From IMG/VR virus record IMGVR_UViG_3300023174_000101, positions 34,361 through 98,360 of that record: a stretch of DNA of 64,000 nucleotides. One strand, written 5' to 3'. Source of the DNA: a virus. Shown here piece by piece: positions 10,505-60,512 of this stretch; the stretch's first letter is position 1, and every line of letters begins with the position of its first letter. The notes beneath the pieces are model-generated. The model saw only the letters and a program-made list of their open reading frames with translations, ran no database searches and was not told the DNA's origin. A program made the translations under genes and the position numbers.

Positions 10505-10545
10505 CCGCCGCCAGTGGTGCAATACGCATGCCACACTGGCGGCGG
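10505..10545 (-). promoter_or_regulatory. sigma54-type promoter (TGGCATG-N4-TTGCA) forming the loop of a 12-bp inverted repeat
   Basis: CCGCCGCCAGTG (10505-16) and CACTGGCGGCGG (10534-45) flank the 17-nt motif exactly. Confidence 0.65.
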
Positions 10546-10560
10546 TACACTGCTTAAATA

Positions 10561-10842
10561 CTAAATACTGGCTACGCTCTTGGCAGCATTGCGAAGGTAC
10601 TCGTTGCCAGCAAGTTCAATGGCGTCGTCATGCGCCTGACGCTCTGCCGTCTTGACGGCCTCAAGTGCGGCGAGCATCTTCTTCTTATTCTCCTTGATAA
10701 CCTCGTTGGTTGAGGCCACATACTCCTTCTTCTGGTCATCCAGGTCTACGTTCTGCTTCACAATGTCCACGATGACCTTGCGGAGCTGCTCCTGGGTTAG
10801 CTTTCCGAATCCATACGGGTCTTGGTTTGCAGGGTTATTCAT
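10561..10842 (-). CDS. small coiled-coil protein
   Basis: GGAG RBS; helical sequence. Confidence 0.65.
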   Translation of the reverse strand: MNNPANQDPYGFGKLTQEQLRKVIVDIVKQNVDLDDQKKEYVASTNEVIKENKKKMLAALEAVKTAERQAHDDAIELAGNEYLRNAAKSVASI

Positions 10843-10850
10843 ATTGTCTC

Positions 10851-12320
10851 CTATCCTAATACTAAGTGTCCGTCGTTGTCGTACTGGCTTTTACGTGAAT
10901 CGAAGTGCTTAGATAAAAATTGGGTGTTGGTGTGAAAATCGATCAATAGTCCGTACTCCTTGGTCGCATTTGGGGATTTATCTGCACGCTCTACCCGTCC
11001 TTTGAGCTGCCGGATATCCTGCAAGTCTGATGCCAACATGATTGCATTTAGGGATGGTATATCCAGCCCAGTGCCACCTACATCGCTCACCAGTACTAGT
11101 AGATCCTTCCTCCGCATCGCATCGTAGATTTCTCTTCGTCGGAGGCGAGGAGTCTTACCATTAACCAGCATTGAACCTGGAATGCGCTGCTGAATGGATT
11201 CACCGAATTCAATAGAGTGAGCAGCGTGAATGAACACAGAATTACCTGTTGATGCCATTTTAGATGCGTAAGCAGCAACTTCCTCATGATACTGGTCATT
11301 CTTGAGGATTTCATTCTCTAAGCACTCTCTGTAATTGGCCGTATAATCGGGCTCAGTCTTGCCACCCTTGAAGCGGTTCTTCTTGAAGTGGATGTTATAA
11401 TCCTTCTTAACCGGCGCGCGATTCTGGACCTGGACGTAAATGGGCACTTTAAGGCCAAGCTCTACGAAGTTATTCTTCCGCGTGTCGAATACGACCGTAC
11501 CAAAGTGCTGCTCAAGCTCCAGGTTCTCACGCTTCTCACGGTCCCCATCCCATCCGTACGGGGTGGCAGAGAAGCCTATGAACCTATCCGCGTTAGGGAA
11601 TAGGTCCATAATGTTGAGGATGGAAGCCGTGTCGCTCAGGTGGACTTCATCCGAGATTACGGCACCCACCTTGTTTGTGAATGCAATCAGGTCCTTGCGC
11701 TTGTCTGCAGCCGCAATTGACTTTGCTTTCTTGATTGTGTTGAGTGACTGGACGGTTGATACGGTGATGTTTTGTATGTCGAATTCCCCGTCCCCTATTA
11801 TCCCGATGGGTTGATTATATGCGCGTTGTAAAGACTGCTGCATCTGGTCAAGCAGTACCACGTCCGTAACGAGAACGATGGTGTACCGCTTGAGATTATT
11901 CAGCAACATCGCAATCTGCACGCTCTTACCGGTGCCCGTGGGGGACACAATAATCCCACTGGACGTCTCAGTTGCGGCCTCCACCGCCTTGCTCTGGAAC
12001 TCGTACGGGCGGAAGATGTCCTTATGTATGTAGTGGTCCACACGGGGTGGCTCGCGCCCTGTGTATTTGGTGGTTACGTTATGACCAGCGTCTTTAAGAG
12101 CAGCGACCACACGGCTCAGAAGGCCACGCCTGAACGTGTTGTCCTTTATGTTGAATAGGTAATTATATCCATCCCACGTGCCGCTCTTGAAGCTGTACAC
12201 ATGCCTGTATCCATCCGGCCTATAGCGCAGGATGGAACACAGATACCTAAGTATGTCGTCAGGAAGGACAGAGGGCTCAATACGTGCAACTAGATTGTCG
12301 TACTCTATGCTTAGGTTCAT
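10851..12320 (-). CDS. SF2 DNA helicase (UvsW/XPB-like)
   Basis: SPTGTGKS, DEVH, SAT, GTGLDIP, QLKGRVER; start MNLSIE overlaps the upstream stop (ATGA). Confidence 0.9.
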   Translation of the reverse strand: MNLSIEYDNLVARIEPSVLPDDILRYLCSILRYRPDGYRHVYSFKSGTWDGYNYLFNIKDNTFRRGLLSRVVAALKDAGHNVTTKYTGREPPRVDHYIHKDIFRPYEFQSKAVEAATETSSGIIVSPTGTGKSVQIAMLLNNLKRYTIVLVTDVVLLDQMQQSLQRAYNQPIGIIGDGEFDIQNITVSTVQSLNTIKKAKSIAAADKRKDLIAFTNKVGAVISDEVHLSDTASILNIMDLFPNADRFIGFSATPYGWDGDREKRENLELEQHFGTVVFDTRKNNFVELGLKVPIYVQVQNRAPVKKDYNIHFKKNRFKGGKTEPDYTANYRECLENEILKNDQYHEEVAAYASKMASTGNSVFIHAAHSIEFGESIQQRIPGSMLVNGKTPRLRRREIYDAMRRKDLLVLVSDVGGTGLDIPSLNAIMLASDLQDIRQLKGRVERADKSPNATKEYGLLIDFHTNTQFLSKHFDSRKSQYDNDGHLVLG

Positions 12321-12766
12321 GTGCCGTAGCGGTACATCTTGTCCAAGCTGTTCGCGCCAGTGATTAGGCGGCTTGCCGACTCGCGCTGAGACTCTAGGGT
12401 CTGAATTGCACGATACAGGCAGTCCATATGCGAATTCAGCACCGCAAGTGCGTCCTCCGCTGCCTCCTTGGTATCCGGGTTCTTCTTCGCCTTTGTCCAC
12501 CCAGGCTTGGCCCCGGCGCACTGAACATACAGCTCCGTGGCAAAGGAGATGCGGTTGGCGATTGCGGGCAGAATAGGCAGGATTTCGCCCTGCAGATTGA
12601 GCGTGTGGTTCGGCCCTGGGATTGGGAGACGCAGATTGAGCAGGCGTGTGGCTACCCACTTTGCCAGGTCTGCGGGGTCAGTCGCGAGGATGTTGGTGAT
12701 GTTTACGTCGGGTATGCTTGCACCGTAGCTTGGCTGGTGAATACCACTTACTGTATCAATGTCCAT
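12317..12766 (-). CDS. hypothetical protein (possible recombination mediator)
   Basis: Lies between RuvC and the helicase; helical C-terminus; function inferred from position only. Confidence 0.5.
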   Translation of the reverse strand: MDIDTVSGIHQPSYGASIPDVNITNILATDPADLAKWVATRLLNLRLPIPGPNHTLNLQGEILPILPAIANRISFATELYVQCAGAKPGWTKAKKNPDTKEAAEDALAVLNSHMDCLYRAIQTLESQRESASRLITGANSLDKMYRYGT

Positions 12767-13955: not shown

Positions 13956-13999
13956 TTGTGCTACTCCTTTGTGGTTAGTGTACTACTTGGGTACTGCAT

Positions 14000-14054: not shown

Positions 14055-14061
14055 ACCTACT

Positions 14062-16309: not shown

Positions 16310-16459
16310 TTACTTAGAGAAATGAATTGTGAGAATGTCGCCGTCTTTAACTTCGATTGATTTGTCCAGCTCTAGGTTAAACTTTGTACCGTCCATACAG
16401 ACGATCAAAGCCTTTCCTTTAGCTGCTTTAATGACTTGTACTTTATCGCCGTTTTTCAT
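16310..16459 (-). CDS. 49-aa small protein (not in the ORF track)
   Basis: MKNGDKVQVIK...IHFSK; its ATG overlaps the purZ TAA. Confidence 0.5.
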   Translation of the reverse strand: MKNGDKVQVIKAAKGKALIVCMDGTKFNLELDKSIEVKDGDILTIHFSK

Positions 16460-17637
16460 TAATTGACTGTATCACTGTGATTATCTGGATTATAGTATCT
16501 GCCTTCTGAATCAAATGGTAGCGCCATTTGGCCCCCAGCCGCACGAATGGTTTCACCGTTACGAGTAACGATTTCACCGTTCTTTGCGCCCGTTCCGACT
16601 AGCGTTACCGGTACACCTCCCACTTCTTCTACCCTACGAATGAAGTTCTTGCTCTTCTCTGTCAGCGTGGAAAAATCACCCTTCTTGCAATTGTCGTGCC
16701 AGTCGATATACTGGATGAAATTCACTGCAATTTGTGTAGGACCACACACGTTCACGAAGTTACGGAATAGAGCATCCGACCACGTAAACACACGACGCAC
16801 TCGCTTAGTCACAGTAGTCCTCTCGTACAACTCCATTGGACCACCACACTCTGACATTACGTCTGCCCAGGTGACCTCCTTGGCGTCAAAGGGCACTGGA
16901 CCTGACCACCCTACAGTACCGTCTTCGGCTACGAAGTTACCCACCCGGATGGGCCAGGTGCGTACGATACCGATTACCTCGCCCACCGCCTTGGGAGGCA
17001 CACCCATACCGCCTAAGAAGGAACTGGTGTTGGTACCGCCAGACGTGCAGTATGGGAAGTCGATGCCGTGGGAGATATCCAGGCCGAACCCCTGGTGGCC
17101 CTCATGCAGGAAGGTCTCGCCTGCAATAAGTCTGCTGTGAATTAGGTGGGTGGTGTTGCAGGTGAATGGCTTGAGCCACTCAATGTCCTTGGAGAGGCGT
17201 ACACCCTCCTCGCGACGAATACGACGGGCCTTAGCAGCGCCCACACCCTGCATTGTACCACCGATGCGGCCTAGGTGCTGCTTCTCCCACAGGACGTCCT
17301 CTTCCTCTACAACCACTGCACGGTCGGATACGAACAGACGCTCTGGGGTGAGCTTAAACTGCTCAATCTCCTTCTTGAGGATGTCGAGCGAGAGCGTGGA
17401 CTCTGGCCCGATGATGAGCTTGGTTGATGGATTTAGGACACCGGTCGGAATCTGCTTGACGAGAATCTCCGTGCCGTCGTCTAGTACAGTAACGTGGCCC
17501 GCGTTCGCACTGAACGAACAGGTGGCCCACTCAGGCTTGTCCTCTAGTACGATGTACGCAAGCATCTTGCCCTTGCCGCAGGAGCCCACGCCAGCATCTA
17601 AACCAATATTGAACTTGCCCTTCTGTAAGTATCGCAC
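16459..17637 (-). CDS. purZ: PurZ-type N6-succino-2-amino-dAMP synthetase (PurA paralogue)
   Basis: GSCGKG (Ser where PurA has Asp in GDEGKG), NAGH, EGHQG, PYCTS, RTWPIRV, TTVTKRVRR, and VNF instead of the PurA TKLD motif. Confidence 0.82.
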   Translation of the reverse strand: MRYLQKGKFNIGLDAGVGSCGKGKMLAYIVLEDKPEWATCSFSANAGHVTVLDDGTEILVKQIPTGVLNPSTKLIIGPESTLSLDILKKEIEQFKLTPERLFVSDRAVVVEEEDVLWEKQHLGRIGGTMQGVGAAKARRIRREEGVRLSKDIEWLKPFTCNTTHLIHSRLIAGETFLHEGHQGFGLDISHGIDFPYCTSGGTNTSSFLGGMGVPPKAVGEVIGIVRTWPIRVGNFVAEDGTVGWSGPVPFDAKEVTWADVMSECGGPMELYERTTVTKRVRRVFTWSDALFRNFVNVCGPTQIAVNFIQYIDWHDNCKKGDFSTLTEKSKNFIRRVEEVGGVPVTLVGTGAKNGEIVTRNGETIRAAGGQMALPFDSEGRYYNPDNHSDTVN

Positions 17638-21202: not shown

Positions 21203-21433
21203 TTATGTGCTTTCCTGGCGCGTCCTTCGTGCTCTCTTTGCTCTTGACTGCAGGCGGGCTTCACGCGCATGAACTTTACAGTGACGCACTTGAGTGCGAT
21301 CCTGTGGCTTAATGTAGCGTATCTGTGTGCACGACACGTGCTCGCACACAATCTTAAGCGAGTAGATGTTAGTATCGACCCTTTCATTCTCGCCGCGTTC
21401 GTTCACTTGTGTTGCGAGCTTTGGTTCCGTCAT
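21203..21433 (-). CDS. small Zn-ribbon protein
   Basis: IVCEHVSCTQIRYIKPQDRTQVRHCKVH; ATGA overlap. Confidence 0.6.
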   Translation of the reverse strand: MTEPKLATQVNERGENERVDTNIYSLKIVCEHVSCTQIRYIKPQDRTQVRHCKVHAREARLQSRAKRARRTRQEST

Positions 21434-22668
21434 ACATTCATTTTCTTTAACAGCGCGGCGGCTGCGGCGCAATCTTCTTCTTCTGAATGTTCTTCTATGT
21501 AGCGTTTCACGTATTCACGTACTTTCTTAACCCTACGTGCAGCGAGCGATGCGCTACAATTGTGGTGCTCGCCAATCTTCTTAGAGAAGTTCACACATTT
21601 GCCAATTAAGAAATGATCAGCACCGCACGTATCTGCAGGGTCAAGTGTTTTCTCGTGGCCACACTTGCCCTGGGTCTTAAATAACTTGCACCGCTCTGTG
21701 CAGATGGTGCTTGCGGATGCCACGCACTTCTTGCACATTTCAGCAGATGCTTCTGACTTTACAAGGATATCAAACACTTCCTTGGTCTTAGACACAGCTG
21801 TAGGATCACGCGGGTCGAGCGGCAAGTAGTTGTACAGTTTAGTTATGAGCCCGTCTATGAGTAGATCTTCCTCAAGTTCGGATAATGTAGTTTCCGTGTC
21901 CGCGCCGCTCGAAGTCTGTGCTAGCAGATCATCACCGCCATGAGCGCGTGCGTCTATGCGCACATTCTGCGATTCACAGTGAATACACTTACGGTTAAAC
22001 TGACGCTGCCAGGTATGGCCGCACGTTTTACACATGCGGAATTTCTTAGACCTATACGACGAATTGCCCGTTGGCCAATACTTGCACGTATCGGTGGAAT
22101 TGCATTTTGCACACGCGGACGAGTCCTCCTTGGTAGAGACACTAGACCCACCGCCACAGTCATCACACACCATCATGATGTTGCGCCTGTATGCTTTATT
22201 TAGCATATTGCGCACACCCATTATCCCCATATTCCTCAAGTAGTGAACTGGGTTGCAGTTGGTGTTGCGGTGCGCAAATGTGAGACCGCTCGTAGACTTC
22301 TCGTCGTCAGGGTCGTCCGTGTGTTGACCGTCAACCACGCGAACAGACACGATTTCGCCAGTCATGCTTGCCCTTGGGAGATACTTAAATACCGCCTCCC
22401 AAAAGGTAGACACAACATCTGACATGTCGGTGCCGAAGCTGGCCGAATTGCCAGCCTTACCACCGTTGTGCTTATAGCGTTCGTGTTCGAACGTCTTACG
22501 AATGATGCCTTGCCTGTTTACGTCCCAAATATTATATCCTTCAACTCCGGATATAAGATCCATAGTCGTCTGTAAGGCGTCTTTGTCTACTTCATTCGTG
22601 GCGACTGAGTGTTGCAACTTGGCTACGACTTGATTCGCAGTCTCGTTTTGTACCCACTTTGTACTCAT
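21430..22668 (-). CDS. sigma70-like factor with Cys-rich insertions (putative)
   Basis: Region-2-like DVVSTFWEAVFKY...YLRNMGIMGVRNML; region-4-like KKIGEHHNCSASLAARRVKKVRE; several CxxC pairs. Confidence 0.5.
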   Translation of the reverse strand: MSTKWVQNETANQVVAKLQHSVATNEVDKDALQTTMDLISGVEGYNIWDVNRQGIIRKTFEHERYKHNGGKAGNSASFGTDMSDVVSTFWEAVFKYLPRASMTGEIVSVRVVDGQHTDDPDDEKSTSGLTFAHRNTNCNPVHYLRNMGIMGVRNMLNKAYRRNIMMVCDDCGGGSSVSTKEDSSACAKCNSTDTCKYWPTGNSSYRSKKFRMCKTCGHTWQRQFNRKCIHCESQNVRIDARAHGGDDLLAQTSSGADTETTLSELEEDLLIDGLITKLYNYLPLDPRDPTAVSKTKEVFDILVKSEASAEMCKKCVASASTICTERCKLFKTQGKCGHEKTLDPADTCGADHFLIGKCVNFSKKIGEHHNCSASLAARRVKKVREYVKRYIEEHSEEEDCAAAAALLKKMNV

Positions 22669-22674
22669 GCGCTC

Positions 22675-23346
22675 CTACTTGCTTAGTCTACAGACACTGC
22701 ATAGCTTGACTTGAAAGCAGTCAGCCAGATGGATCGTCCTAGTGCTCAAGCAACCTGGGCCTGACTTTTGACATTTAATATCAAGAATGGTGCCGCCTGG
22801 CTTGTCCGGGTCTGCACGGAACGTGCCAGCGATTGCCCATGAGTACTTTTTTACCACAGCGTCCTGCGACTGTGAATCACTGTATACTGGCACCTTTTGT
22901 TTCTTGGGCTGGCCCGCATGCTTAGGTGGCTGTCCTGACGCCATGCGGGCGACTTCGTTCTTCGTCTTCTCGCGCTCGCGCTTGGCCTTGTTAATCTCCT
23001 TAAGCTTTTCCTTTACGTCTTCTGGCATTGGCGGAGCGTCACTGTCTAGAGGCTTAATTTTGCCTTTAGCCCACGAGCCCAAGTAGTGCTGCTCGAACTT
23101 CTGCCGCGCCTTCTCTAAATACTCTGCTTTCTTTTCTGCGTTGGCCTCAAGTGACGCCAGAAATAAATGCTTCATAGCATAATCTGGAATTTCAAGCTTG
23201 TATGGCTCCAAATACTCAGAATACAACCGTTTCATTTCCTGCACTACATCGTCAGGCATCTCTACATCTACATACGGTGTAAGATCAGTGGTTGGCAGGA
23301 CGTGTGGCACGCTTGCGCTTTGTGTCTTTTTTATGTGCTTTTTCAT
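22675..23346 (-). CDS. Lys-rich protein with C-terminal Zn ribbon (start uncertain)
   Basis: IKCQKSGPGCLSTRTIHLADCFQVKLCSVC. Confidence 0.6.
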   Translation of the reverse strand: MKKHIKKTQSASVPHVLPTTDLTPYVDVEMPDDVVQEMKRLYSEYLEPYKLEIPDYAMKHLFLASLEANAEKKAEYLEKARQKFEQHYLGSWAKGKIKPLDSDAPPMPEDVKEKLKEINKAKREREKTKNEVARMASGQPPKHAGQPKKQKVPVYSDSQSQDAVVKKYSWAIAGTFRADPDKPGGTILDIKCQKSGPGCLSTRTIHLADCFQVKLCSVCRLSK

Positions 23347-23630: not shown

Positions 23631-25079
23631 TTAGATACAAGCCATAATCGCGTCGTGGTCTTCGTGCATCATGTGTGCCACTTCTGCGGCAATTTCAAGC
23701 GTGAGGTCAGTTGCATTTGTCTTGTCTCCCTTGCAGACTTTGTATGCTACCAGGGCCTGGATTAGAGCGCGGAGGAACGTACTGGACGTTGGAGCTACTC
23801 CATCGAACGCTGCCGAGTTTAGAACAACTACACCACCATCAAGGATCGAAATATGATCACGCTTGAAGACTAGCGTCGGCTTGTACTTGCGGAACTCAAC
23901 CCTTGGCTCGAATCCGGCCAGCCTATTCACAGCAAACGTCAGGAAAGCTGTGATCTGCGCGTTTGGGTCTGCGTTATGCCATTCTATCTCTTCGCCAGCA
24001 TCGGAACGTTCGACTTCCTTGGCAATGGTCTCTGCGTCCGATACCACGCTCTTCACCGCGTCCACTACGGACCTGGCCATATTGTCGGTGTCAATTACCG
24101 TATAGCCGTTGGCAGACAGGGAAGCGTTCGCATCCCGGTTCGTGCTCTTTACTGCGGCCTTGCTTACATCACCGAACATGACCTCTACGTACTTCTTCCG
24201 GCACGAGTGGCTCGCATAGATGAGCGCCTCCTCTACCCACTTGTCCTTGAGGTCCTTCTTGGACCACGTGTTCACGGCCTCCTCAAGGCAGAGTGCGAGC
24301 AGGCAGCGGGTGTAATACCCAGACACGGAGGTACGGTCGTCGGACAGCGGAATGCGCTGCTCTACATTGATGTGGAATGGCGTGTCGATGTTCGTGACCG
24401 GCACTCCCATTTCATACAGGAATGCAGTCTCGTTGGGCTTTGTGTAGTACAACTCCACGTCAGCTGTACGATACTCAGTCGTCTGCACGCCATCCTTAAT
24501 AACCACAGTTTCAAGGTGGGCCCTAGTAGTCATGTTCGGCTTACGGCTACGCACGCGCTTGCCGCTAACCACCAGCGCCTTGCCGTGCTCTACTATAAAA
24601 CCATTGAGATGCTGCTCAATGTCTATGATGTCACGCTCTGTCCAGCCGTCCACTTCGGCGGTCAGCCGCGTGCCCTTTTTGCGGTTGTTCCTCACGACCG
24701 TGCGGCCTTCCTCAAACTGGACCGTGAACCCAATGGTCTCAATCGAAGCCACGCGGGCAGCTGCAATAAGCTCCTTTACGCCACGACCCTTGCGGCCACG
24801 GGACGTGGGGCTGTCCTCCTTACTGGTCATGAACACCGTGGTCACATGTTCAGGACTCTGCACGCCCGTTGGCGAGTTGTCCTCGACCTGCACCCGAACA
24901 CCAGTGTCTGTGCGTTCGAGCTTCACGTTGATTACGTTCGCATCGGCTTGGTCTAGTGCATTGGAGATAGCCTCGCGGACCAAGTGCTTTGGGCCACGAC
25001 CGGCGTTCATCCTGCGCCAGCCTTCATTGGAGAGTTCGAAGCGATTGGAGCTGGTGGACAGTACTAGTTCGTTTGACAT
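23631..25079 (-). CDS. GHKL (HATPase_c) ATPase-domain protein
   Basis: REAISNALD, VEDNSPTG, SRGRKGRGVK, GTRL. Confidence 0.8.
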   Translation of the reverse strand: MSNELVLSTSSNRFELSNEGWRRMNAGRGPKHLVREAISNALDQADANVINVKLERTDTGVRVQVEDNSPTGVQSPEHVTTVFMTSKEDSPTSRGRKGRGVKELIAAARVASIETIGFTVQFEEGRTVVRNNRKKGTRLTAEVDGWTERDIIDIEQHLNGFIVEHGKALVVSGKRVRSRKPNMTTRAHLETVVIKDGVQTTEYRTADVELYYTKPNETAFLYEMGVPVTNIDTPFHINVEQRIPLSDDRTSVSGYYTRCLLALCLEEAVNTWSKKDLKDKWVEEALIYASHSCRKKYVEVMFGDVSKAAVKSTNRDANASLSANGYTVIDTDNMARSVVDAVKSVVSDAETIAKEVERSDAGEEIEWHNADPNAQITAFLTFAVNRLAGFEPRVEFRKYKPTLVFKRDHISILDGGVVVLNSAAFDGVAPTSSTFLRALIQALVAYKVCKGDKTNATDLTLEIAAEVAHMMHEDHDAIMACI

Positions 25080-25136
25080 AGTGGTTTAGTGTTCCGCCTT
25101 TGGGGTCCCGCGCCGCGCCGCGCGCACACGAATATC

Positions 25137-25152
25137 TGCAATGGCCGTGCCA
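25137..25152 (-). promoter_or_regulatory. sigma54 -24/-12 promoter
   Basis: TGGCACG-GCCA-TTGCA, a perfect consensus, intergenic. Confidence 0.8.
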
Positions 25153-25373
25153 GGCCGGGCTCAACTTACAGTACTACGTTATGACCGGAAATCCACTCAG
25201 ACACCACACCGGACACGCTCGCCAGGTCTGCAGCCTCATCCTTTGTGATGTCCGTCTTTACACCAGTTTTGTGGTCTACTATCTGGAACGAACCTACTTG
25301 CGTAACAATAAGTGAAAACCGGCCAATTGTACATATTAACCAGCCGGTCTCACCTAAATTACCTACATTGAAA

Positions 25374-25829
25374 TTACGCTTTTCCATCGTCGTAATTAAT
25401 TGGTGGGTTGAACTTGATGTAGTCTCTGATGTTGCGAGTTGCAGCTCTTGTGAGACGTGCATCCTCCATCTCCTGTTCAACCTTTGGATTCGGCACGATT
25501 CCGAATCCTTCTTTGTTAAAATGACCAACTAGTATCTTACAAGGAAACGCGCAAATCTTGTATCCGTCTATATCAGTAAATGGAGTAGCGTACACATTGC
25601 TTGTTCCATTCTCTATCTCTTCTTCGTATTCTACTTCATCTGATATTATGGTAACGGATGGAGAGTAGAAGCGAGCCATCAGCAGAGAACTCGCATTAGA
25701 AGGATTGTACTCCACCAACAGATCCGAATAAATGTTACGTACGTACAATACCGCATCGAGTAGCTTCTGTTTGTCTTTTACGTCAACTGTTAAATACGCT
25801 ATTGCAGCGTCAGCTTTTAGTATCCCCAT
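25374..25829 (-). CDS. hypothetical protein
   Basis: ORF fits the tiling. Confidence 0.6.
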   Translation of the reverse strand: MGILKADAAIAYLTVDVKDKQKLLDAVLYVRNIYSDLLVEYNPSNASSLLMARFYSPSVTIISDEVEYEEEIENGTSNVYATPFTDIDGYKICAFPCKILVGHFNKEGFGIVPNPKVEQEMEDARLTRAATRNIRDYIKFNPPINYDDGKA

Positions 25830-29675: not shown

Positions 29676-30351
29676 AACTTATCCTCAAGCACACGGCGTG
29701 CCGCCTCTGTATCCCTTTGATGCCAGCCGGGACACGTACATGCTTCATCTACGCATTCATACTTCTCGCATACCTTCAACGCACGCTTCAAATGGATCTC
29801 CATGGCCAACATACGCACACCCAACCTGCGTATCTCAGCCATGGCGTCCTTTAACGTAGTTATGGCTTGTGTCACTCGAGCCCCATTAATTGTGGCTCAA
29901 TTAGTTTCGCCTTTGCTGCTGCAACAGCCCGCTTATGGATAGTGTCTTTACACTTGCCACAAATCATGCCCTTTTCGAGTACGTTGCCGCCGTCGCATGC
30001 GACTTGCGAACTACATACTTCCATCAGCTTCTTTGGTTTGTGCGCCATTGAGCTTTGACTCCAATTCTGCTACCTTCGCGTTCAGCCTGCGTACTTCATT
30101 GACCAACCTCTGCGCGTCGGCAATGGTTGGCCAATCAAATATGACATCCAACTGCTCGTCACTGATTGGTGTTACTCTTATAGCTGTGGGCCCCACAGGA
30201 GCACGCGTGCCAATCAAGAAACCAACCGCAGCCTTTAATGTGCTTAGCATGCTCCACGTCCTTAGAGCTCACTGCGCTGCTGAACACAGCGCAGGAGCAT
30301 TGGGTCCAGTCACGATGCCAGTGACATGCGGCATCGTGTCTTACATCTTGT

Positions 30352-31509: not shown

Positions 31510-31525
31510 TGCACCGGTCGTGCCA
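31510..31525 (-). promoter_or_regulatory. sigma54 -24/-12 promoter
   Basis: TGGCACG-ACCG-GTGCA. Confidence 0.75.
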
Positions 31526-34083: not shown

Positions 34084-34099
34084 TGCAATGCGCGTGCCA
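34084..34099 (-). promoter_or_regulatory. sigma54 -24/-12 promoter
   Basis: TGGCACG-CGCA-TTGCA. Confidence 0.8.
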
Positions 34100-35507: not shown

Positions 35508-35523
35508 TGCACACGGCGTGCCA
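35508..35523 (-). promoter_or_regulatory. sigma54 -24/-12 promoter
   Basis: TGGCACG-CCGT-GTGCA. Confidence 0.7.
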
Positions 35524-38762: not shown

Positions 38763-38835
38763 TGCGAACGGCGTGCCAGAGGTCTTACCTCTCACACGCC
38801 GCCGCACGACAAAGAATACTGCACTGGCCGTGCCA
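38763..38835 (-). promoter_or_regulatory. tandem sigma54 promoters (38763-38778, 38820-38835)
   Basis: TGGCACG-CCGT-TCGCA and TGGCACG-GCCA-GTGCA. Confidence 0.75.
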
Positions 38836-43470: not shown

Positions 43471-44073
43471 TTACGCCTGCGACTTTGCCGCTTCAAGCAA
43501 ATGCTTAAACGGGCCTGCTCTCATCTTGCTTTCATAACGTACGATGCGATGGTCATAAACTGGTAGTCCGACACCCATTGCATACTTCTCTACTGCGACC
43601 TTGATTTTACGTTCAACTTCATCTACTGCAACTACCTCTGCGCGTCGTTCGACTGAAAAATCGCCGCTAGGCTTGAGTAGCCCCTTAGCATACTTAACTA
43701 CACGACTGTCGTCTACGTCAAGACCTAGCGACTGTGCGTAGTGAAGTACGGCGCACTTGAACTTGTTGTTGTCCACGCTTGCATCAATCGAAACCGAGTC
43801 TACGTCTTCTGGTGCTGTGGCAGACTGTGCGTACTTCCTTACCACCGGGTCTTGCACACTGAGGTTCAGTGATTCGGCGTAGTGTCTGACTGCCTCAGTA
43901 TTGTCTACCTTCGTGTTGTCAACTGCCGTTGCGTCAACATCATCCTCTGTGAGGCCCTGCGATGCTGCGTACCGGACAGCTCTGGGTGAGTCAATCGTAA
44001 TACCCTGGCTTGCTGCATACCTGCGAAGACGCGCCAGTGCTTCGATTTTGGAGACACCAGACCCGCTCAACAT
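43471..44073 (-). CDS. YAxSxGL-repeat protein (4 repeats)
   Basis: AVRHYAESLNLSVQDPVVRKYA, AVLHYAQSLGLDVDDSRVVKYA and two more. Confidence 0.75.
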   Translation of the reverse strand: MLSGSGVSKIEALARLRRYAASQGITIDSPRAVRYAASQGLTEDDVDATAVDNTKVDNTEAVRHYAESLNLSVQDPVVRKYAQSATAPEDVDSVSIDASVDNNKFKCAVLHYAQSLGLDVDDSRVVKYAKGLLKPSGDFSVERRAEVVAVDEVERKIKVAVEKYAMGVGLPVYDHRIVRYESKMRAGPFKHLLEAAKSQA

Positions 44074-44148: not shown

Positions 44149-44164
44149 TGCACAGCGCGTGCCA
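44149..44164 (-). promoter_or_regulatory. sigma54 -24/-12 promoter
   Basis: TGGCACG-CGCT-GTGCA. Confidence 0.75.
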
Positions 44165-45637: not shown

Positions 45638-46288
45638 TTACTGCTTAATCTCAATTACGACCTTAACGCTGTCGTTGTCGTATCCTACGAGCATCGTCTT
45701 GTCGCCGTTAGGGAAGTCGATAACGTTCAGCACGTTTCCGTAGTTGTGCGCTCCCCTAATTGACGCCCCGTGCTTGGCAAGCTCTTTGTCGATTTGGTCT
45801 ACAATGTAGTTATTGTAATGCGCCAGACCTTTTGGCACTGAGATGGATAGAGCTGCACTGCCGCTTGACGGGGCGGGGATTGCGACTTCAACGTTGAACG
45901 TAACGGTCTGAGGCAGATTGACTGTGTTCGGGTTAACGCCAGCCGCCTGCTGCGTGGGCTGCTGTGCCTGTGCCTGCTGGGCTTGGGGTTGCTGCTGGGC
46001 CGCAATCTTAGCTGCACGCCCGTTAGCCTCGTCCTCAGTGAGAACGGAGGGAGACTGTGCCATGAACTTACCGACCGGGGTCTCAAACCAGTCGCCGTCC
46101 TTGATGCGGTTATCCTCGGAGCGTAGTCCGTGTAGCGCCTTCTTCATGGCGTCTGCAGCGCTGGGGTCGGTCTGCGGACAGCCGATGTCAATCATCACGG
46201 CGCTGTTGAGCAGCGGGACCTTAAGGCCCTGGACCTCATACCAGCCGTCGTTCGCACCTGCGTACAATTCAGATACAGTGTAGTTCAT
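45638..46288 (-). CDS. two-domain protein with Gln-rich linker
   Basis: ORF with its own promoter. Confidence 0.65.
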   Translation of the reverse strand: MNYTVSELYAGANDGWYEVQGLKVPLLNSAVMIDIGCPQTDPSAADAMKKALHGLRSEDNRIKDGDWFETPVGKFMAQSPSVLTEDEANGRAAKIAAQQQPQAQQAQAQQPTQQAAGVNPNTVNLPQTVTFNVEVAIPAPSSGSAALSISVPKGLAHYNNYIVDQIDKELAKHGASIRGAHNYGNVLNVIDFPNGDKTMLVGYDNDSVKVVIEIKQ

Positions 46289-46321: not shown

Positions 46322-46337
46322 TGCATACGGCGTGCCG
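46322..46337 (-). promoter_or_regulatory. sigma54 -24/-12 promoter
   Basis: CGGCACG-CCGT-ATGCA. Confidence 0.7.
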
Positions 46338-47071: not shown

Positions 47072-47426
47072 AATCGACCATCACGCACGCCAGGGAGGTG
47101 GAACATGCGTGATGGAAGGGTCACCAGTGAATCTTACTTCACGAGACCGTACTGCATACAATACTCTTCAAACTTGCTGCGATATTCTTGCTCAGTTGCC
47201 TGGCTCTTGTCAAGCTGCTCGGTCACACGCTCAATTTCTGCAGCGTTGCCAGACTCGATCGCACGCTGGGCCTTGAATAAGAGCTGCTCGATCTTCGCAG
47301 ACTCCTTCTTCATCAAGCTGTGATAAAATTCAAGATTGTAAACTGCCGCCTCAGTGCCACTCATTGGCCTGAGCCCGCTCGTCCGTTGCCGGTTCAGTTC
47401 GTTCATGTCACCCATGTAATTATCCC

Positions 47427-48035
47427 CTAGTACTCACGCGCCATCTTGCGGATCGCATTCCTGACGAACTCGGTAATCTTCTCTTCGATCAGAGTGTCCG
47501 CATCTTCGTGTGTGCTCTTCCCGATAATTGCCTCGGCAACATCGTCCATGCTGATGCTCTCGGCCACCTTCGCCGCCAAGTCATCCAGATCGACTTCACG
47601 TGCGATGTCGCCCACCTCAATGTTGTTTGCAACCTCATTGACGTCCACTTCGCGTGCGATCTTTTCGTGGTCAATGTAGAGACTAAACTCAGTATTGCCC
47701 ATCTGTTGCTTGACTTCGGTCTCAACAGCGAGCACAATCGAGGAGTCGATAGTCTCAGCAACACTGGACATAATCTTGTCTGTGGCGATCTCCTCCAAAT
47801 TGCCATCACTGTTGGTCTTGAGCTTGGTCAGCAGAACGTTGAAAACGCTGTTGATCTGGTGCAACGAGTCCTCGATCGAAGACAGTCGCTGGTCGATGTT
47901 GCGCACCTTCACGGTGAGTGCATCGGGCTGCGTGTCCTTCGACAGAACGATCTGGCCCGCGTCCTGCTTGGTTGCCTCAAGGATAGGCTTGATGCTGTTG
48001 AGGTAGTCGATGATCTGATTGATGTTCACGTCCAT
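47427..48035 (-). CDS. acidic helical protein with 9-aa internal repeats
   Basis: IDHEKIARE-VDVNEVANN-IEVGDIARE-VDLDDLAAK. Confidence 0.65.
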   Translation of the reverse strand: MDVNINQIIDYLNSIKPILEATKQDAGQIVLSKDTQPDALTVKVRNIDQRLSSIEDSLHQINSVFNVLLTKLKTNSDGNLEEIATDKIMSSVAETIDSSIVLAVETEVKQQMGNTEFSLYIDHEKIAREVDVNEVANNIEVGDIAREVDLDDLAAKVAESISMDDVAEAIIGKSTHEDADTLIEEKITEFVRNAIRKMAREY

Positions 48036-48225
48036 TTTGGTGTTCTCCTCTTAAGGTTCAATCACAACAGCATTCACTACGTCGTCGCCAACTTCGATTT
48101 CCTCGACCTGCACTTCTGATTCAATGCTCAAATCAACTACTGTATCCTTATTCTTGCCAATGTAGACCGGCATGTCAAGGTCAAAATCGGCAAGCTTAAG
48201 AAGCAAATCCCTTACGATCATTGGC

Positions 48226-48517: not shown

Positions 48518-48533
48518 TGCAATTCCCGTGCCA
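48518..48533 (-). promoter_or_regulatory. sigma54 -24/-12 promoter
   Basis: TGGCACG-GGAA-TTGCA. Confidence 0.8.
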
Positions 48534-49245
48534 GGCGCCTTGGCTATTTAACTAGCCGAAGTCCATTCAAGAAGCGAACGTTCTCCGCCCACTTCGTAAT
48601 CTGGGTCGTGCATGTATAGCACGAACCATACTTCTTGAAGCGAGAACTTTCCTTCAAGGTCGTATAATCCATTCGTTCACCTTCGCATCCTTCTTTACCA
48701 CAGCTGCCACCAATATCATCTATGCGGAGTGTGTGCTTTTCCTTGTCCGGGTCATTGCTAAAGTTGAACTCAATCTCCATCCCGACTCTTGGCTGAATCA
48801 TTATCTTTCCTTTCTATGATACGCGGTGGTAGTCCCCACCAATTCCTGCTATCAAGCAGACGGTGAAGTTCGGCTTGAGCCGTTTCAAATTTGTGGAGTA
48901 CCGCCATGGACCTGTATCCATGGCGGCTCCACTTCTGTACTTCGTACTTCCCACTAACGTCTTTTGGCGACGTCTGTGACGAACAGTGACACTGCTCCAT
49001 TCTTCACCTTAGGTGCGTTCTGCGACATGGCATAACGAATTCCTGCGGAAGGTGAACAGGCAAGCATGTACTGTGTGAGGCGCGGGTCCCGGTTAATCTG
49101 AATAGAACCCGCAGTCTTATGTCCGTACACCATGACGCCGGTCAACCGAGCCGGTTCGTCTGATGCACAGTCGATGCATTCATTTACTTTACCAAAATTC
49201 CTGCCCTCAAGCTTCGACTGCTCGGCTTTCTGCTTGGGGCTGAAT

Positions 49246-53832: not shown

Positions 53833-55011
53833 TCAGCTCCTCATCGCATTCCCAATTCCACGCAGAAGCTCGGTCTGCGCCTTATCGGCCTCCGCGTACC
53901 ACTTGCTCGACTTGTGCTTCTTGATCCCGAAGTCGGGGCGACCAAGCACGTTCAGTGCGGCGACCCGAATCTCACGGTCCTGAATGCGGTTGCTGTAGAC
54001 CCAGGCGGGGCAGGGGTCCTCAGCTGCTACCTGGCCGATGATTCCAAGCACCGCGATGCCGACGTTGATGTTCGCAGGGATCTTGGCCGTGTCGGGGGAG
54101 GCGATAATCTCTCGAACTCCCGGCAGCTGGTGTCGAATCTTGCGAATCGCCATGTAAGCTGCGGCGGGCTGGTCTCCCACGTTGCCTGCCAGACCCGCCA
54201 TGAACACGGGACTGGTGTCAGGCTCGCCAGAGAGGAGAGCCTCGGCAACGAATTCCACCGCACGCTGCCACGAGCGTGGCGCACCCCACGGCTTGCCCTC
54301 TGCCTGGGTGCCAGGCGGCGGCTCAAGCTGCAGCAGGTCGGGCGAGGACTCGAGCGTGGCTGCAAAGTCAATCGCAACCCGACGCTTCATCGCATCAGCC
54401 TGCATCTCGCGGTGGGCCTTCACGACCTCCGGATTCTGCTTATCCTCGTCGCTCAACTCGGGGACTTCACTCGGGTCGATGCCGAACCGATAGAAGTAAT
54501 CCTGAATCTCTGCTCGGGTGGGCATCATCTCAATGTGGGTCATGCGGCCAATCAGGGGAAGTGCCAATTCCCACCCACCCGCAGCTTGGTGACTGGGGTT
54601 GGATGCTGCTACGATGCGACTGCCGGGGTGGAGCTTCCTATCACCAGCCCGACGAGCGTAGATGAGCTGCATGCTCGCACCCTGCACCGCAGGAGGCGTG
54701 CAGGACAATTCATCCAGGAAGAGGAGCACGGGCTCGTTGCATGCCCGCTTGATGGCACCAAGCGGCAGGCGGTCGAGTCCTCCGTTCGACACGACAGGGA
54801 AACCGCCGATATCGGTCGGGTCACACTGCGAGAGGAGCAGAGTCTCAACCGGCATGCCGGTCTCCTCTCCGATTCCCTCAATGATGGCCGACTTGCCAAC
54901 TCCCGGAGGACCGACCAGGTGAATGGGCGTGTTCGACCGAAGTGAGTAGGACAGCGCCTTCTTGCAGTCCGTGAGAGAAAGGCGATTGATGGACAAAGAC
55001 GGATTGGACAT
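53833..55011 (-). CDS. MoxR-like AAA+ ATPase
   Basis: GPPGVGKS, LFLDEL, AASNP, RM, PRSW. Confidence 0.9.
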   Translation of the reverse strand: MSNPSLSINRLSLTDCKKALSYSLRSNTPIHLVGPPGVGKSAIIEGIGEETGMPVETLLLSQCDPTDIGGFPVVSNGGLDRLPLGAIKRACNEPVLLFLDELSCTPPAVQGASMQLIYARRAGDRKLHPGSRIVAASNPSHQAAGGWELALPLIGRMTHIEMMPTRAEIQDYFYRFGIDPSEVPELSDEDKQNPEVVKAHREMQADAMKRRVAIDFAATLESSPDLLQLEPPPGTQAEGKPWGAPRSWQRAVEFVAEALLSGEPDTSPVFMAGLAGNVGDQPAAAYMAIRKIRHQLPGVREIIASPDTAKIPANINVGIAVLGIIGQVAAEDPCPAWVYSNRIQDREIRVAALNVLGRPDFGIKKHKSSKWYAEADKAQTELLRGIGNAMRS

Positions 55012-55077: not shown

Positions 55078-55142
55078 AGCAAGGGCCGTGCCAGCTCTAC
55101 TACACTCTCCCACCGTCTTCGGCGGGTGCACGGCCCGTGCCA
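55078..55142 (-). promoter_or_regulatory. tandem sigma54 promoters (55078-55093, 55127-55142)
   Basis: TGGCACG-GCCC-TTGCT and TGGCACG-GGCC-GTGCA. Confidence 0.78.
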
Positions 55143-57059: not shown

Positions 57060-57075
57060 TGCAAGCGGCGTGCCA
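57060..57075 (-). promoter_or_regulatory. sigma54 -24/-12 promoter
   Basis: TGGCACG-CCGC-TTGCA. Confidence 0.8.
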
Positions 57076-59171: not shown

Positions 59172-59191
59172 TCCTTGGTGTTGGGGTTGTA

Positions 59192-59518
59192 CTACTTCGC
59201 TGCGAAAATCATGATGTTGCTTTCATCTACCACAATCTGCTCGCCGCAGATGTTTACCTTGCTCTCGCCCTCGCCAGGCGTGAGAACCAAGCGCACGGGC
59301 AGCGTGTATGTCTCTCCACGGTGCACCACGGTCAGCTTCTCCGGGTCTGACGACCCAGAGTAAAAGTCCTCAATCGGCACTTCCATGTCGATGGAGGAGA
59401 TGTCACCTTGGGAGAAAGACCAGCCAGTGTCGGTCTCCTCGTAGGAGAATTCCTTCACCCGCTTGCCGTCCACCCACAACTTCATACCACGGCCAACGAT
59501 GATTTCAATTAGATTCAT
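59192..59518 (-). CDS. hypothetical protein, paralogue of 62875..63228
   Basis: IVGR...VDG...GW.F...F..G..P..L. Confidence 0.7.
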   Translation of the reverse strand: MNLIEIIVGRGMKLWVDGKRVKEFSYEETDTGWSFSQGDISSIDMEVPIEDFYSGSSDPEKLTVVHRGETYTLPVRLVLTPGEGESKVNICGEQIVVDESNIMIFAAK

Positions 59519-59694
59519 GACTACCTCCCTGAGAGGGTGCCCGACATGAGTGCCGGGGAGACGCCTCCCCAATCAACACAAGTGCTTGAACTTGGATGCG
59601 GATTGGGGAGACGTACAGCGGCCTAACCCGCTGTACACTCCCTACTACAGGAGGGGTGGTGGCCGAACCCACCACCCCTCCTCACCACACTGCA

Positions 59695-60288
59695 TCAGCC
59701 CTCGGCCTCAACCTCGGTCTTGGCCGAGACCTCGATGCCCTTCTCCGCCGCCACCTGGCGGATCTTGGCGAGGCGGGCCTTCAGCGCATCGGCTGCCTTG
59801 GCCTTGCGCTGCTCCTCGGCTGCGGCCTTCTGCGCCTCCTGCTGAGCCTTGCGGGCCTCAGCGGCCTGCGCCTTCTCCGCCTCCTTCTTGGCCTTCTCGG
59901 CCTCGCGCACCTTCAGCAGGACCTCGTTCGCCTCCTGCTTCATGGCGCGGACCTCGTCGCTGTCCGTGTCGAGGATCTTCATCAGACCCTGGACGGAGGA
60001 GCCGCCACCGGAGGAGGACTTGCTGCCTCCGCCAGACCCGCCCTTCTTCTTGGCGTGCGTGCGGCACTTGCCGCACTGGTGCCAATCCGAGACCTCACGG
60101 ACGTGGAGCTCGGTGCACCCAGGCTCGGTGCACGTCAGCTCCGCCTGGGGCTTGCCCCGGACGGAGGGCTCAGCGAGGACGACACCCAACGCGCCGGTCG
60201 GGGTGGTGAACTTCACGCCCGCCGCCTCGGTGAGGGACTTCTTCGCTGCGGCCTTGGCGTCGTTCATCTCAACGGTGTTGGTGTTCAT
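59695..60288 (-). CDS. Ala/Lys-rich Zn-ribbon protein, paralogue of 38215..38709
   Basis: ELTCTEPGCTELHVREVSDWHQCGKCRTH; strong GC3 codon bias. Confidence 0.8.
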   Translation of the reverse strand: MNTNTVEMNDAKAAAKKSLTEAAGVKFTTPTGALGVVLAEPSVRGKPQAELTCTEPGCTELHVREVSDWHQCGKCRTHAKKKGGSGGGSKSSSGGGSSVQGLMKILDTDSDEVRAMKQEANEVLLKVREAEKAKKEAEKAQAAEARKAQQEAQKAAAEEQRKAKAADALKARLAKIRQVAAEKGIEVSAKTEVEAEG

Positions 60289-60436
60289 ATTGCTGTACTT
60301 CTCCTGCTAACCGGACGAAATTGTCCGGTTTCTCCCTGCCTCTTTGGGTCAGGGAAATCTTCGGCAGCACCGCTACTGCCTATTGAGGGCCAAGGACTCG
60401 AACCTTGCCGCGCGCCGCCTGACAAATTCTCTTTTC

Positions 60437-60512
60437 TGCAGAGCGCGTGCCAGAAACCCTCCACCCTTCATCGCCCGCCGCGCCGCCCGCGAGTGAAGCA
60501 AGCGGCGTGCCA
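60437..60512 (-). promoter_or_regulatory. tandem sigma54 promoters (60437-60452, 60497-60512)
   Basis: TGGCACG-CGCT-CTGCA and TGGCACG-CCGC-TTGCT. Confidence 0.78.

What the first reader, a model, noticed from the sequence alone, without database searches (positions are those of the whole stretch)
10517..60512. A phage regulon of about 15 sigma54 (-24/-12) promoters
Seen: YGGCAYG-N4-NNGCW (GG-N10-GC) on the minus strand at 10518, 25137, 31510, 34084, 35508, 38763, 38820, 44149, 46322, 48518, 55078, 55127, 57060, 60437 and 60497. All lie at gene junctions and point toward the downstream gene. Minus-strand TGGCACG hits I noticed inside genes (about 392, 8481, 30206, 39518, 40639, 42864) lack the GC at the right spacing, which serves as an internal control. 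The sites at 31510 and 38820 also share the downstream GTATTCT.TGTCGTGCG. Known: this is the RpoN consensus, and sigma54 holoenzyme needs an AAA+ enhancer-binding protein. Inference: the phage runs much of its accessory programme on sigma54, using a host EBP or an unseen phage activator. This is unusual for phages and suggests a sigma54-rich host such as Myxococcota.
Basis: partly seen in the sequence, partly recalled or inferred. Interest (0 to 1): 0.85.

Follow-up and report, generated by a model that had tools for sequence, protein, structure and literature searches.

The report
Phage regulon of sigma-54-type promoters
An uncultured large phage puts most of its non-structural genes, including one of its own sigma-factor genes, behind about 18 near-perfect copies of the bacterial sigma-54 (-24/-12) promoter, a transcription strategy reported only in passing for cultured phages.

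Summary
YGGCAYG-N6-GCW occurs 21 times in the window, all on the gene-coding minus strand (1.9 expected). A 17-nt matrix gives 18 sites of at least 16 bits on that strand of the 98-kb contig and none on the other. About 15 of the 18 lie in short intergenic gaps, 22-140 nt before the next start codon.

The conserved block, (C/G)TGGCACG-N5-TGCA, is the sigma-54 consensus with invariant GG-N10-GC spacing. A syntenic relative (contig C128, proteins 34-61% identical) and two further contigs from the same metagenome bin carry the same one-strand regulon. At least five junctions are positionally conserved. One site lies inside a coding region in different reading frames in the two phages. More distant relatives have sigma-70 promoters in the same slot.

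No sigma-54, no enhancer-binding ATPase and no shared upstream enhancer site was found in the phage DNA at hand.

The main rival is real. The phage encodes two sigma-70-family factors. One, a zinc-ribbon-bearing sigma (P0002), co-occurs with the motif and sits behind one of the sites. The motif's geometry does not fit sigma-70-type reading.

The host is unknown, and the Myxococcota guess is equivocal. Earlier AI notes from this scan flag similar regulons in at least 11 other phage genomes.

The parts
60497..60512 (-). -24/-12 element, upstream member of a tandem pair before gene 59695-60288
   Evidence: (23.6 bits); a tandem array also precedes the orthologue on C254 (x4) and C351 (x1)
60437..60452 (-). 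-24/-12 element, downstream member of the tandem pair; its leader contains a T-arm-like minihelix
   Evidence: (23.8 bits)
57060..57075 (-). -24/-12 element before an HTH-like 167-aa gene (ATG at 56988)
   Evidence: (25.3 bits)
55127..55142 (-). -24/-12 element, upstream member of a tandem pair before the AAA_5 ATPase gene 53833-55011
   Evidence: (24.8 bits); relatives L084/L085 have a sigma-70 promoter in this slot
55078..55093 (-). -24/-12 element, downstream member of the tandem pair, 56 nt from predicted start site to the ATG at 55011
   Evidence: (23.5 bits)
48518..48533 (-). -24/-12 element at the junction after gene 48544-48801
   Evidence: (23.1 bits)
46322..46337 (-). -24/-12 element (CGGCACG variant) before gene 45638-46288
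   Evidence: (20.1 bits)
44149..44164 (-). -24/-12 element before gene 43471-44073
   Evidence: (26.0 bits)
38820..38835 (-). -24/-12 element, upstream member of a tandem pair before gene 38215-38709; followed by the GTATTCTTTGTCGTGCG box
   Evidence: 25.7 bits
38763..38778 (-). -24/-12 element (CGCA at -12), downstream member of the tandem pair
   Evidence: (22.9 bits)
35508..35523 (-). -24/-12 element with a near-leaderless ATG about 20 nt after the motif
   Evidence: (24.9 bits)
34084..34099 (-). -24/-12 element directly after tRNA-Leu, before gene 33166-34005
   Evidence: (25.8 bits)
31510..31525 (-). -24/-12 element before gene 30352-31440; position conserved in relative C128
   Evidence: (20.4 bits)
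29688..29703 (-). weaker element (CGGCACG...TGCT); the predicted start site is 2 nt before the ATG at 29675, so either a leaderless message or a false site
   Evidence: (18.6 bits)
25137..25152 (-). best-scoring -24/-12 element, before the GHKL-ATPase gene 23631-25079
   Evidence: (26.5 bits)
22813..22828 (-). intragenic -24/-12 element 134 nt upstream of the P0002 sigma gene; conserved in C128 in a different reading frame
   Evidence: (13.9 bits)
21430..22668 (-). P0002, a zinc-ribbon-bearing sigma-70-family factor: a target of the regulon and the main rival reader of the motif
   Evidence: pLDDT 86.6; sigma region 2, Z 8.6; region 4, Z 6.4
16686..16701 (-). consensus-grade element inside the PurZ-like gene; possibly an internal promoter, not conserved in C128
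   Evidence: (21.6 bits)
10518..10533 (-). -24/-12 element (TGGCATG variant) in the loop of an 11-bp inverted repeat, before the ATG at 10485; position conserved in C128
   Evidence: (19.4 bits)

Best explanation
These are promoters read by the host RNA polymerase carrying sigma-54 (RpoN). Each 17-nt block supplies the -24 element (TGGCACG) and the -12 element (TGCA) on one face of the helix. Transcription would start about 12 nt downstream of the GC and run leftward through co-directional genes. About 15-18 such promoters, several in tandem pairs, would then drive the phage's whole non-structural module: small early-type genes, tRNAs, the AAA+/VWA pair, a GHKL ATPase, nucleotide and replication genes, and the gene for a phage sigma-70-family factor (P0002). 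P0002 and the second phage sigma presumably then take over later genes.

Shown: the motif, its statistics, strand and position, its conservation in relatives, and the absence of sigma-54 and EBP genes in the DNA at hand.

Inferred: that sigma-54 holoenzyme binds the sites, where transcription starts, and that an AAA+ activator opens the complexes. That activator would be a host protein, or a phage protein encoded in the missing ~39% of the genome. With no shared upstream site detected, it would probably act without a conserved enhancer.
For: The motif equals the published consensus TGGCAC-N5-TTGCW (PMC12316311) at every conserved position, with invariant GG-N10-GC spacing. In relative C128 even the -15 T is conserved (TTGCA).

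The conserved block is exactly 17 nt. No other column within 30 nt upstream or 40 nt downstream exceeds about 1 bit.

All 18 strong sites are on the coding strand, and about 15 of 18 are intergenic with room for a leader and SD.

It is conserved as a one-strand regulon in syntenic relative C128 (13 vs 1), in C351 (13 vs 1) and in C254. There are 30 pattern hits in that bin against 1 for the reversed control.

At least five junctions are positionally conserved while the flanks have diverged. The site before the P0002 gene lies in different reading frames in the two phages, so selection acts on the DNA.

In L084/L085 the orthologous AAA+ gene is preceded by a sigma-70 promoter (TTGACATC...CCGCGGTAATAC) and those whole records lack the motif. 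This contig has no TTGACA-N16-18-TAnnnT at all and no excess of sigma-70-like sites.

Controls: 1.4 Mb of other phage loci give 10 scattered hits. Bacterial genomes carry roughly one site per 100-250 kb.

Precedent: Pseudomonas phage YuA uses sigma-70 and a sigma-54-like promoter (bioRxiv 10.1101/2023.10.13.562163).
Against: No EBP (PF00158) or sigma-54 DNA-binding domain (PF04552) was found in the 98-kb contig, nor on the related phage contigs C128, C351 and C254.

No shared upstream activator site was found, although sigma-54 strictly needs an AAA+ activator.

The host is unknown, so the presence of rpoN in it is not shown. The only binned relative sits in a MAG labelled Actinomycetes, a group that effectively lacks RpoN. 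That bin is mixed, however, since it holds a genuine EBP.

The phage has two sigma-70-family factors of its own. The P0002 type is present in both motif-bearing phages and was not found in five motif-less relatives.

There are no RNA data.
Confidence: 0.66

Rival explanations
1. The motif is the promoter of a phage-encoded sigma factor, most likely the zinc-ribbon-bearing sigma-70-family protein P0002 (or the second sigma at contig 24903-25739). Its likeness to the sigma-54 consensus would be convergent. No enhancer-binding ATPase would then be needed.
For: P0002 folds as sigma region 2 plus region 4 with a zinc-ribbon insert. A second canonical sigma-70-family gene is present. Both motif-bearing phages (this one and C128) encode P0002. 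Five motif-less relatives gave no P0002 match. No EBP, sigma-54 or UAS was found. Highly uniform, many-copy promoters are typical of phage-specific factors. One relative was binned with an Actinomycetes MAG.
Against: An unrelated factor would have to match the sigma-54 consensus at 11-12 positions, which is about 4^-11 by chance.

The two blocks are only 5 nt apart, about 11.5 bp centre to centre. Regions 4 and 2 of sigma-70-family factors on core polymerase read elements about 22-23 bp apart. No conserved element lies 16-18 bp from either block.

P0002's own gene sits behind the motif in both phages, which fits a cascade better than pure autoregulation.

P0002 shows no similarity to sigma-54.

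The co-occurrence rests on two phages against five partly incomplete records. The Actinomycetes bin is mixed.
Confidence: 0.2
2. The motif is a binding site or RNA-level signal for some other phage factor (repressor or operator, antiterminator loading site, processing site) and not a promoter core.
For: Several copies are embedded in inverted repeats (10518 lies in the loop of an 11-bp stem; 57060, 31510 and 38820 pair with flanking sequence). The block is weakly palindromic (TGGCA...TGCA). No start-site data exist.
Against: Strict one-strand orientation (18 to 0) argues against a symmetric operator. The variable distance to the start codon (2-140 nt) argues against a translational operator. 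The flanking hairpins are not conserved between sites or between phages. There is no Rfam match. It occupies the slot where relatives have sigma-70 promoters. It would again require coincidence with the sigma-54 consensus.
Confidence: 0.08
3. The copies are a dispersed repeat or chance matches without regulatory function.
For: Three matches are explained by coding constraint. The copy at contig 30401 and C128 copies 39618 and 33212 encode G-M-T-F-A-E-F-L, a conserved C-terminal protein motif. The weak CGGCACG hits at 2491 and 3745 are inside genes.
Against: Only the 17-nt core is shared and the flanks are unrelated, so this is not a mobile repeat. Enrichment, strand bias, intergenic placement and cross-phage positional conservation are each far beyond chance.
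Confidence: 0.02

Closest known systems
Bacterial sigma-54 (RpoN) enhancer-dependent -24/-12 promoters (glnAp2, pspA, nifH type; consensus TGGCAC-N5-TTGCW)
   Same: Identical conserved bases and GG-N10-GC spacing. Directional and placed upstream of genes. Sometimes followed by CT-rich tracts.
   Different: Density is about 1 per 3-4 kb here against roughly 1 per 100-250 kb in bacterial genomes. No shared upstream activator site, no cognate EBP gene nearby, compact intergenic context, frequent tandem pairs. The -15 T is only weakly conserved in this phage.
Pseudomonas phage YuA (Ceyssens et al. 2008; ONT-cappable-seq in bioRxiv 10.1101/2023.10.13.562163)
   Same: A virulent phage reported to depend on host sigma-54 as well as sigma-70, with a sigma-54-like promoter region identified by start-site mapping and consistent with an earlier promoter-trap assay.
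   Different: In YuA only one sigma-54-like promoter region was mapped, and most of its promoters are of other kinds. Here the sigma-54-type element is the only enriched promoter signal over at least 60 kb and is conserved across a phage clade.
Phage sigma cascades (T4 gp55/gp33 late promoters, SPO1 gp28 then gp33/34)
   Same: The phage encodes its own sigma-70-family factors, and one sigma gene is itself driven by the preceding promoter class. Many uniform promoter copies.
   Different: In those systems the early class uses host sigma-70. Here the pre-late class looks like sigma-54, which would need ATP-dependent activation. P0002 carries a zinc-ribbon module between regions 2 and 4.
Small EBP plus sigma-54 promoter modules on viral or prophage contigs
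   Same: Viral contigs that encode an EBP with a -24/-12 site next to it (L342, L344, L346).
   Different: Those have 1-3 sites and an EBP gene. This phage has about 18 sites and no EBP gene in the DNA available.

Membership tests
sigma-54 (RpoN) -24/-12 promoter | Invariant GG and GC dinucleotides exactly 10 nt apart | tested here: met
   All 21 pattern matches and all 18 PWM sites have this spacing, with no +/-1 variants among the strong sites. The same holds in C128, C351 and C254.
sigma-54 (RpoN) -24/-12 promoter | Extended consensus TGGCAC(G)-N4-(T)TGCW | tested here: met
   TGGCACG in 13 of the 15 core sites; TGC at the -12 element in 14/15; A at -11 in 13/15. TTGCA in most C128 sites. 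Compared with the consensus string in PMC12316311. The published matrix itself could not be retrieved.
sigma-54 (RpoN) -24/-12 promoter | Sense orientation upstream of genes, with the start site about 12 nt after the GC and upstream of the RBS | tested here: met
   18/18 on the coding strand; predicted leaders of 22-140 nt for most sites; two near-leaderless cases (29688, 35508). Start sites are predicted, not measured.
sigma-54 (RpoN) -24/-12 promoter | A sigma-54 protein available in the cell | not testable with these tools
   The host is unknown. No PF04552 in the phage contig or in bin G009. The candidate Myxococcaceae genomes do have rpoN.
sigma-54 (RpoN) -24/-12 promoter | A cognate AAA+ enhancer-binding protein (GAFTGA type) and upstream activator sites | tested here: inconclusive
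   No PF00158 in the contig. The only AAA+ candidate, P0001, is MoxR/midasin-like and also occurs in sigma-70-promoter relatives. No shared upstream motif. A host EBP, or one in the missing ~39% of the genome, cannot be excluded. An orphan EBP sits on a 1.9-kb contig of the relative's bin.
sigma-54 (RpoN) -24/-12 promoter | Transcription dependent on rpoN and ATP hydrolysis by the activator | not testable with these tools
   Needs experiments.
sigma-70-family (including phage sigma) -35/-10 promoter | Two elements separated by a 15-19 nt spacer, with the -10 element as the essential conserved block | tested here: not met
   The blocks are 5 nt apart, and no conserved column lies 16-18 nt from either block. 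No TTGACA-N16-18-TAnnnT on the contig. Generic sigma-70 scan not enriched.
sigma-70 family of sigma factors (for P0002) | Region 2 and region 4 folds | tested here: met
   AF2 model pLDDT 86.6. VIA-align: residues 1-160 match RpoS, SigA, gp55 and ECF region 2 (Z 8.6-6.3). Residues 257-405 match region 4 of SigL, SigH, SigR and SigE (Z 6.4-4.5). Z values are modest but nearly all top rows are sigma factors. No Pfam hit.

The most novel reading that the evidence does not exclude
The zinc-ribbon-bearing sigma-70-family factor P0002 (a family of about 39 cluster representatives known only from metagenomes) is what reads the TGGCACG-N5-TGCA element. A sigma-70-type protein would then have converged on sigma-54's -24/-12 promoter architecture, giving the phage enhancer-independent transcription from sites that may also trap or compete with host sigma-54 holoenzyme.
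Probability: 0.17. Interest if true: 0.92.

Novelty: new variant of a known kind. Interest (0 to 1): 0.72.

Why it matters
Phages are textbook users of host sigma-70, their own sigmas or their own polymerases. Sigma-54 is unusual because it forms a closed complex that stays silent until an ATPase opens it. A phage clade that wires its whole pre-late programme, and the gene for its own sigma factor, to this switch would tie infection timing to a host signalling ATPase or to an unidentified phage activator. That would be a new way of coupling phage development to host physiology. It would also supply a compact, uniform set of natural sigma-54 promoters with no detectable enhancer.

The contrast with sister phages that carry sigma-70 promoters in the same slots gives a natural experiment in promoter-class replacement. 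If the phage's own zinc-ribbon sigma reads the sites instead, that would be a new promoter-recognition mode for the sigma-70 family.

AI notes from this scan suggest that such regulons recur in many uncultured phages. A search of open-access literature found only phage YuA as a precedent.

Tried and rejected
1. **Z-genome link.** The idea was that a PurZ-type 2-aminoadenine genome forces sigma-54 use because sigma-70 must flip out A at -11. Rejected as a general rule. phiVC8, an Acinetobacter PurZ phage and Burkholderia BCSR129 lack the motif. Most PurZ phages in the collection infect Actinobacteria, which effectively lack RpoN. It remains true that both motif-bearing phages have a PurZ homologue and the sigma-70-promoter relatives showed none.

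2. **P0002 as a phage sigma-54.** Its ARRVKKVRE and YLR..G....RN motifs recalled the RpoN box. BLASTP and hhalign were insignificant, and the fold is sigma-70 region 2 plus region 4. Rejected.

3. **P0001 (AAA_5) as a hidden EBP.** It is MoxR/midasin-like, paired with a DUF2201/VWA protein, and conserved in sigma-70-promoter relatives. Unlikely.

4. **Upstream activator sites.** The shared k-mers were traced to coding sequence.

5. **Second promoter class.** The GTAGTA word is not enriched and reflects tandem stop codons. Sigma-70-like and terminator scans were at chance level.

6. **Relatives.** Single-protein scans with P0001 and PurZ in IMG/VR found nothing. The metagenome scan gave only distant hits.

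7. **Host.** The trigger-factor scan was empty. The PurB tree gives a weak Myxococcaceae signal that promoter-form counts contradict. The 'Actinomycetes' bin label is unreliable.

8. **Foldseek** on P0002 gave only zinc-ribbon noise.

9. **Published sigma-54 matrix.** The held supplement file contained EBP protein motifs instead.

Full report
**What the window is.** The window is bases 34361-98360 of a 98,360-nt IMG/VR viral contig estimated 61% complete. Nearly all its genes run on the minus strand. They include:
- seven tRNAs;
- a class II ribonucleotide reductase;
- a primase-helicase, a UvsW-like helicase, RecA, a PurZ-like adenylosuccinate-synthetase relative and a DNA ligase;
- RNase H and a MarR-type protein;
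- an AAA_5 ATPase (P0001) paired with a DUF2201/VWA protein;
- PurB.

The 34 kb upstream of the window holds tail and baseplate genes on the plus strand. It also holds DnaE, ThyX, SbcCD-like genes, a dUTPase-family gene and a canonical sigma-70-family sigma gene on the minus strand. No cultured phage is close.

**The observation.** YGGCAYG-N6-GCW has 21 matches in the window, all on the minus strand, against 1.89 expected. The whole contig has 23 minus and 0 plus. Nothing above about 1 bit is conserved within 30 nt upstream or 40 nt downstream.

A matrix from these sites splits the contig cleanly. There are 18 sites of 16 bits or more on the minus strand and none on the plus strand, with under 0.5 expected at the lower 14-bit threshold. 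CTGGCACG is the most over-represented 8-mer on the contig.

**Geometry.** At the intergenic sites the preceding gene stops 4-57 nt before the motif. A Shine-Dalgarno plus start codon follows 22-140 nt after the point 12 nt downstream of the GC. Two sites (29688, 35508) would give near-leaderless messages. Four loci have tandem pairs 49-60 nt apart. About 15 of the 18 strong sites are intergenic in a genome that is roughly 90% coding (P about 9e-12).

Generic sigma-70-like sites and intrinsic terminators are at chance level across 24-64 kb. The contig has no TTGACA-N16-18-TAnnnT at all. These elements are therefore the only recognisable promoter signal for the whole minus-strand module, not only for accessory genes.

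**Comparative evidence.** In 80 other viral loci that share the AAA_5 gene (1.4 Mb), only 10 matrix hits of 14 bits or more occur, scattered over both strands.

The nearest IMG/VR relatives are L084 and L085 (AAA protein 48-49% identical). Their whole records lack the motif. Directly upstream of the orthologous AAA gene they carry a recurrent sigma-70-type promoter, TTGACATC...CCGCGGTAATAC. The same slot is thus filled by a different promoter class.

A closer, syntenic relative came to light through the P0002 family. It is contig C128 (65.6 kb) of a MAG labelled Actinomycetes. It shares these proteins with this phage:

| Protein | Identity |
|---|---|
| primase-helicase | 57% |
| RecA | 61% |
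| PurZ homologue | 34% |
| P0002 | 38% |
| AAA_5 (P0001) | 53% |
| DNA ligase | 53% |

In that bin the pattern occurs 30 times against 1 for the reversed control. The hits concentrate on C128 (11, all one strand), C351 (9, all one strand) and C254. By matrix, C128 has 13 against 1 and C351 has 13 against 1. The C351 sites lie 45-75 nt before SD+ATG.

Positions conserved between this phage and its relatives:
- before the 30352-31440 orthologue;
- after the 10561-10842 orthologue;
- before the AAA gene, where C128 has a degenerate TGGCATA-N5-TGCA;
- before the 59695-60288 orthologue, with two, four and one tandem copies in the three contigs;
- about 130 nt upstream of the P0002 gene, inside the preceding gene, where the motif lies in different reading frames in the two phages.

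The last case shows that the DNA element itself is under selection, not a protein motif. Junctions without a site here (ligase, primase-helicase, RecA) also lack one in C128.

**Who reads it.** The block equals the sigma-54 consensus TGGCAC-N5-TTGCW (PMC12316311). Its spacing, about 11.5 bp centre to centre, is that of -24/-12 promoters. It is not that of -35/-10 promoters, whose elements lie about 22-23 bp apart.

Neither sigma-54 nor an EBP is encoded in the 98-kb contig or on the related phage contigs. No shared upstream activator site exists. The recurrent upstream words were traced to coding sequence. P0001 is a MoxR/midasin-like AAA+ protein that also occurs in the sigma-70-promoter relatives, so it is an unlikely activator.

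The best reading is therefore host sigma-54 holoenzyme, activated either by a host EBP or by a phage protein in the missing part of the genome. The only published precedent I found is Pseudomonas phage YuA, which is reported to use sigma-70 plus a sigma-54-like promoter. A search for phage-encoded enhancer-binding proteins together with sigma-54 returned nothing.

**The main rival.** P0002 (21430-22668) has no Pfam match. It belongs to a small metagenomic family and folds with high confidence (pLDDT 86.6). Residues 1-160 match sigma region 2 (RpoS, SigA, T4 gp55, ECF sigmas; Z up to 8.6). Residues 257-405 match sigma region 4 (Z up to 6.4). Zinc ribbons lie between them. Its C-terminal KIAEYH.CSASL.ARRVKK is a region 4.2 helix-turn-helix.

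With the canonical sigma upstream, the phage has two sigma-70-family factors. P0002 is present in both motif-bearing phages and was not found in five motif-less relatives, two of which are 90% or more complete. A phage sigma reading the motif therefore cannot be dismissed.

Four things count against it:
- the coincidence it requires with the sigma-54 consensus;
- the incompatible element spacing;
- the lack of any conserved block at -35/-10 distance;
- the P0002 gene itself lying behind the motif in both phages, which reads naturally as a cascade from sigma-54 to phage sigma to later genes.

I put this rival at about 0.2.

**Host.** PurB groups with three Myxococcaceae sequences (50-51% identity; SH-aLRT 92 on a long branch in a quick tree, with four mis-extracted rows left in). 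Those genomes have rpoN. However, they contain the strict phage form TGGCACG-N5-TGCA only 0-1 times each, below the reversed control. Archangium uses TGCT at -12 almost exclusively. The phage is 51% G+C.

The Actinomycetes label of the relative's bin is unreliable, because the bin holds a genuine though orphan EBP on a 1.9-kb contig. The host stays open.

**Side hypothesis tested.** A link between a PurZ (2-aminoadenine) genome and sigma-54 use was considered. It was rejected as a general rule.

**Limits.** There are no RNA or binding data. The co-occurrence argument rests on few genomes.

Earlier AI notes from this scan report sigma-54-type regulons in at least 11 other uncultured phage genomes. 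One of these also has a phage sigma gene behind such a promoter, and one is attributed to a myxobacterial host. I did not test those claims and do not count them as evidence.

**Verdict.** The finding is a new variant of a known kind: sigma-54-type promoters used as the dominant promoter class of a phage clade.

Noticed in passing
window 21430-22668 (-): P0002 is a sigma-70-family factor with a roughly 90-residue zinc-ribbon module between regions 2 and 4. It has no Pfam hit, and its family of about 39 cluster representatives is known only from metagenomes. The flanking genes also encode Cys-rich proteins.
   Followed up: yes
contig 24903-25739 (L002:4903-5739, -): A second, canonical sigma-70-family gene (Sigma70_r2 plus r4) lies directly downstream of the intein-bearing dnaE. 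Its promoter class was not identified.
   Followed up: partly
It also scores as a -24/-12 site about 80 nt before dnaE. A weaker form occurs at about 41881. This could be dual use or mere coding constraint.
   Followed up: partly
window 10500-10560 (-): Site 10518 sits in the loop of an 11-bp inverted repeat (CGCCGCCAGTG...CACTGGCGGCG). Sites 31510 and 38820 are followed by GTATTCTYTGTCGTGCG, whose GTCGTGC is complementary to the GCACGRC of the -24 element. CT-rich tracts follow several -12 elements.
   Followed up: no
window 16459-17637 and 39108-40427; C128 12190-13167: The PurZ-like protein falls in the short archaeal-PurA/PurZ clade (PDB 2d7u, 5k7x, then PurZ 7odx and 6fm1). The phage also carries PurB. 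Relative C128 has the PurZ homologue, while the sigma-70-promoter relatives showed none.
   Followed up: partly
L084:9587-9616 and 9908-9937; L085:4591 and 9886: Related IMG/VR phages use a recurrent sigma-70-type promoter, TTGACATC-N10-12-CCGCGGTAATAC, including a tandem pair before the AAA_5 gene.
   Followed up: partly
window 52025, 56134, 57892, 58621, 59531, 61329 (-): Six genes share the identical ribosome-binding word CAGGGAGGTA 3-6 nt before the ATG.
   Followed up: no
Rfam and ARAGORN do not call them.
   Followed up: no
G009 (JANXME01...), contigs C128, C351, C254, C263: A GTDB representative MAG labelled Actinomycetes contains at least 108 kb of phage contigs, plus an orphan sigma-54 EBP whose N-terminal 170 residues match nothing and whose AAA+ core is at most 48% identical to any genome representative. 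The EBP may be phage-borne.
   Followed up: partly
L004 (BNCN01000011.1): The record titled Comamonas sp. KCTC 72670 has a PurB almost identical to Corallococcus and a myxobacterial-type rpoN. The name looks wrong.
   Followed up: no
window 48150-48178 and 47184-47213 (-): Two TTGACA-N17/18-AAGAAT matches on the coding strand, the first of them in the gap before gene 47427-48035. They may be rare sigma-70-type promoters.
   Followed up: no
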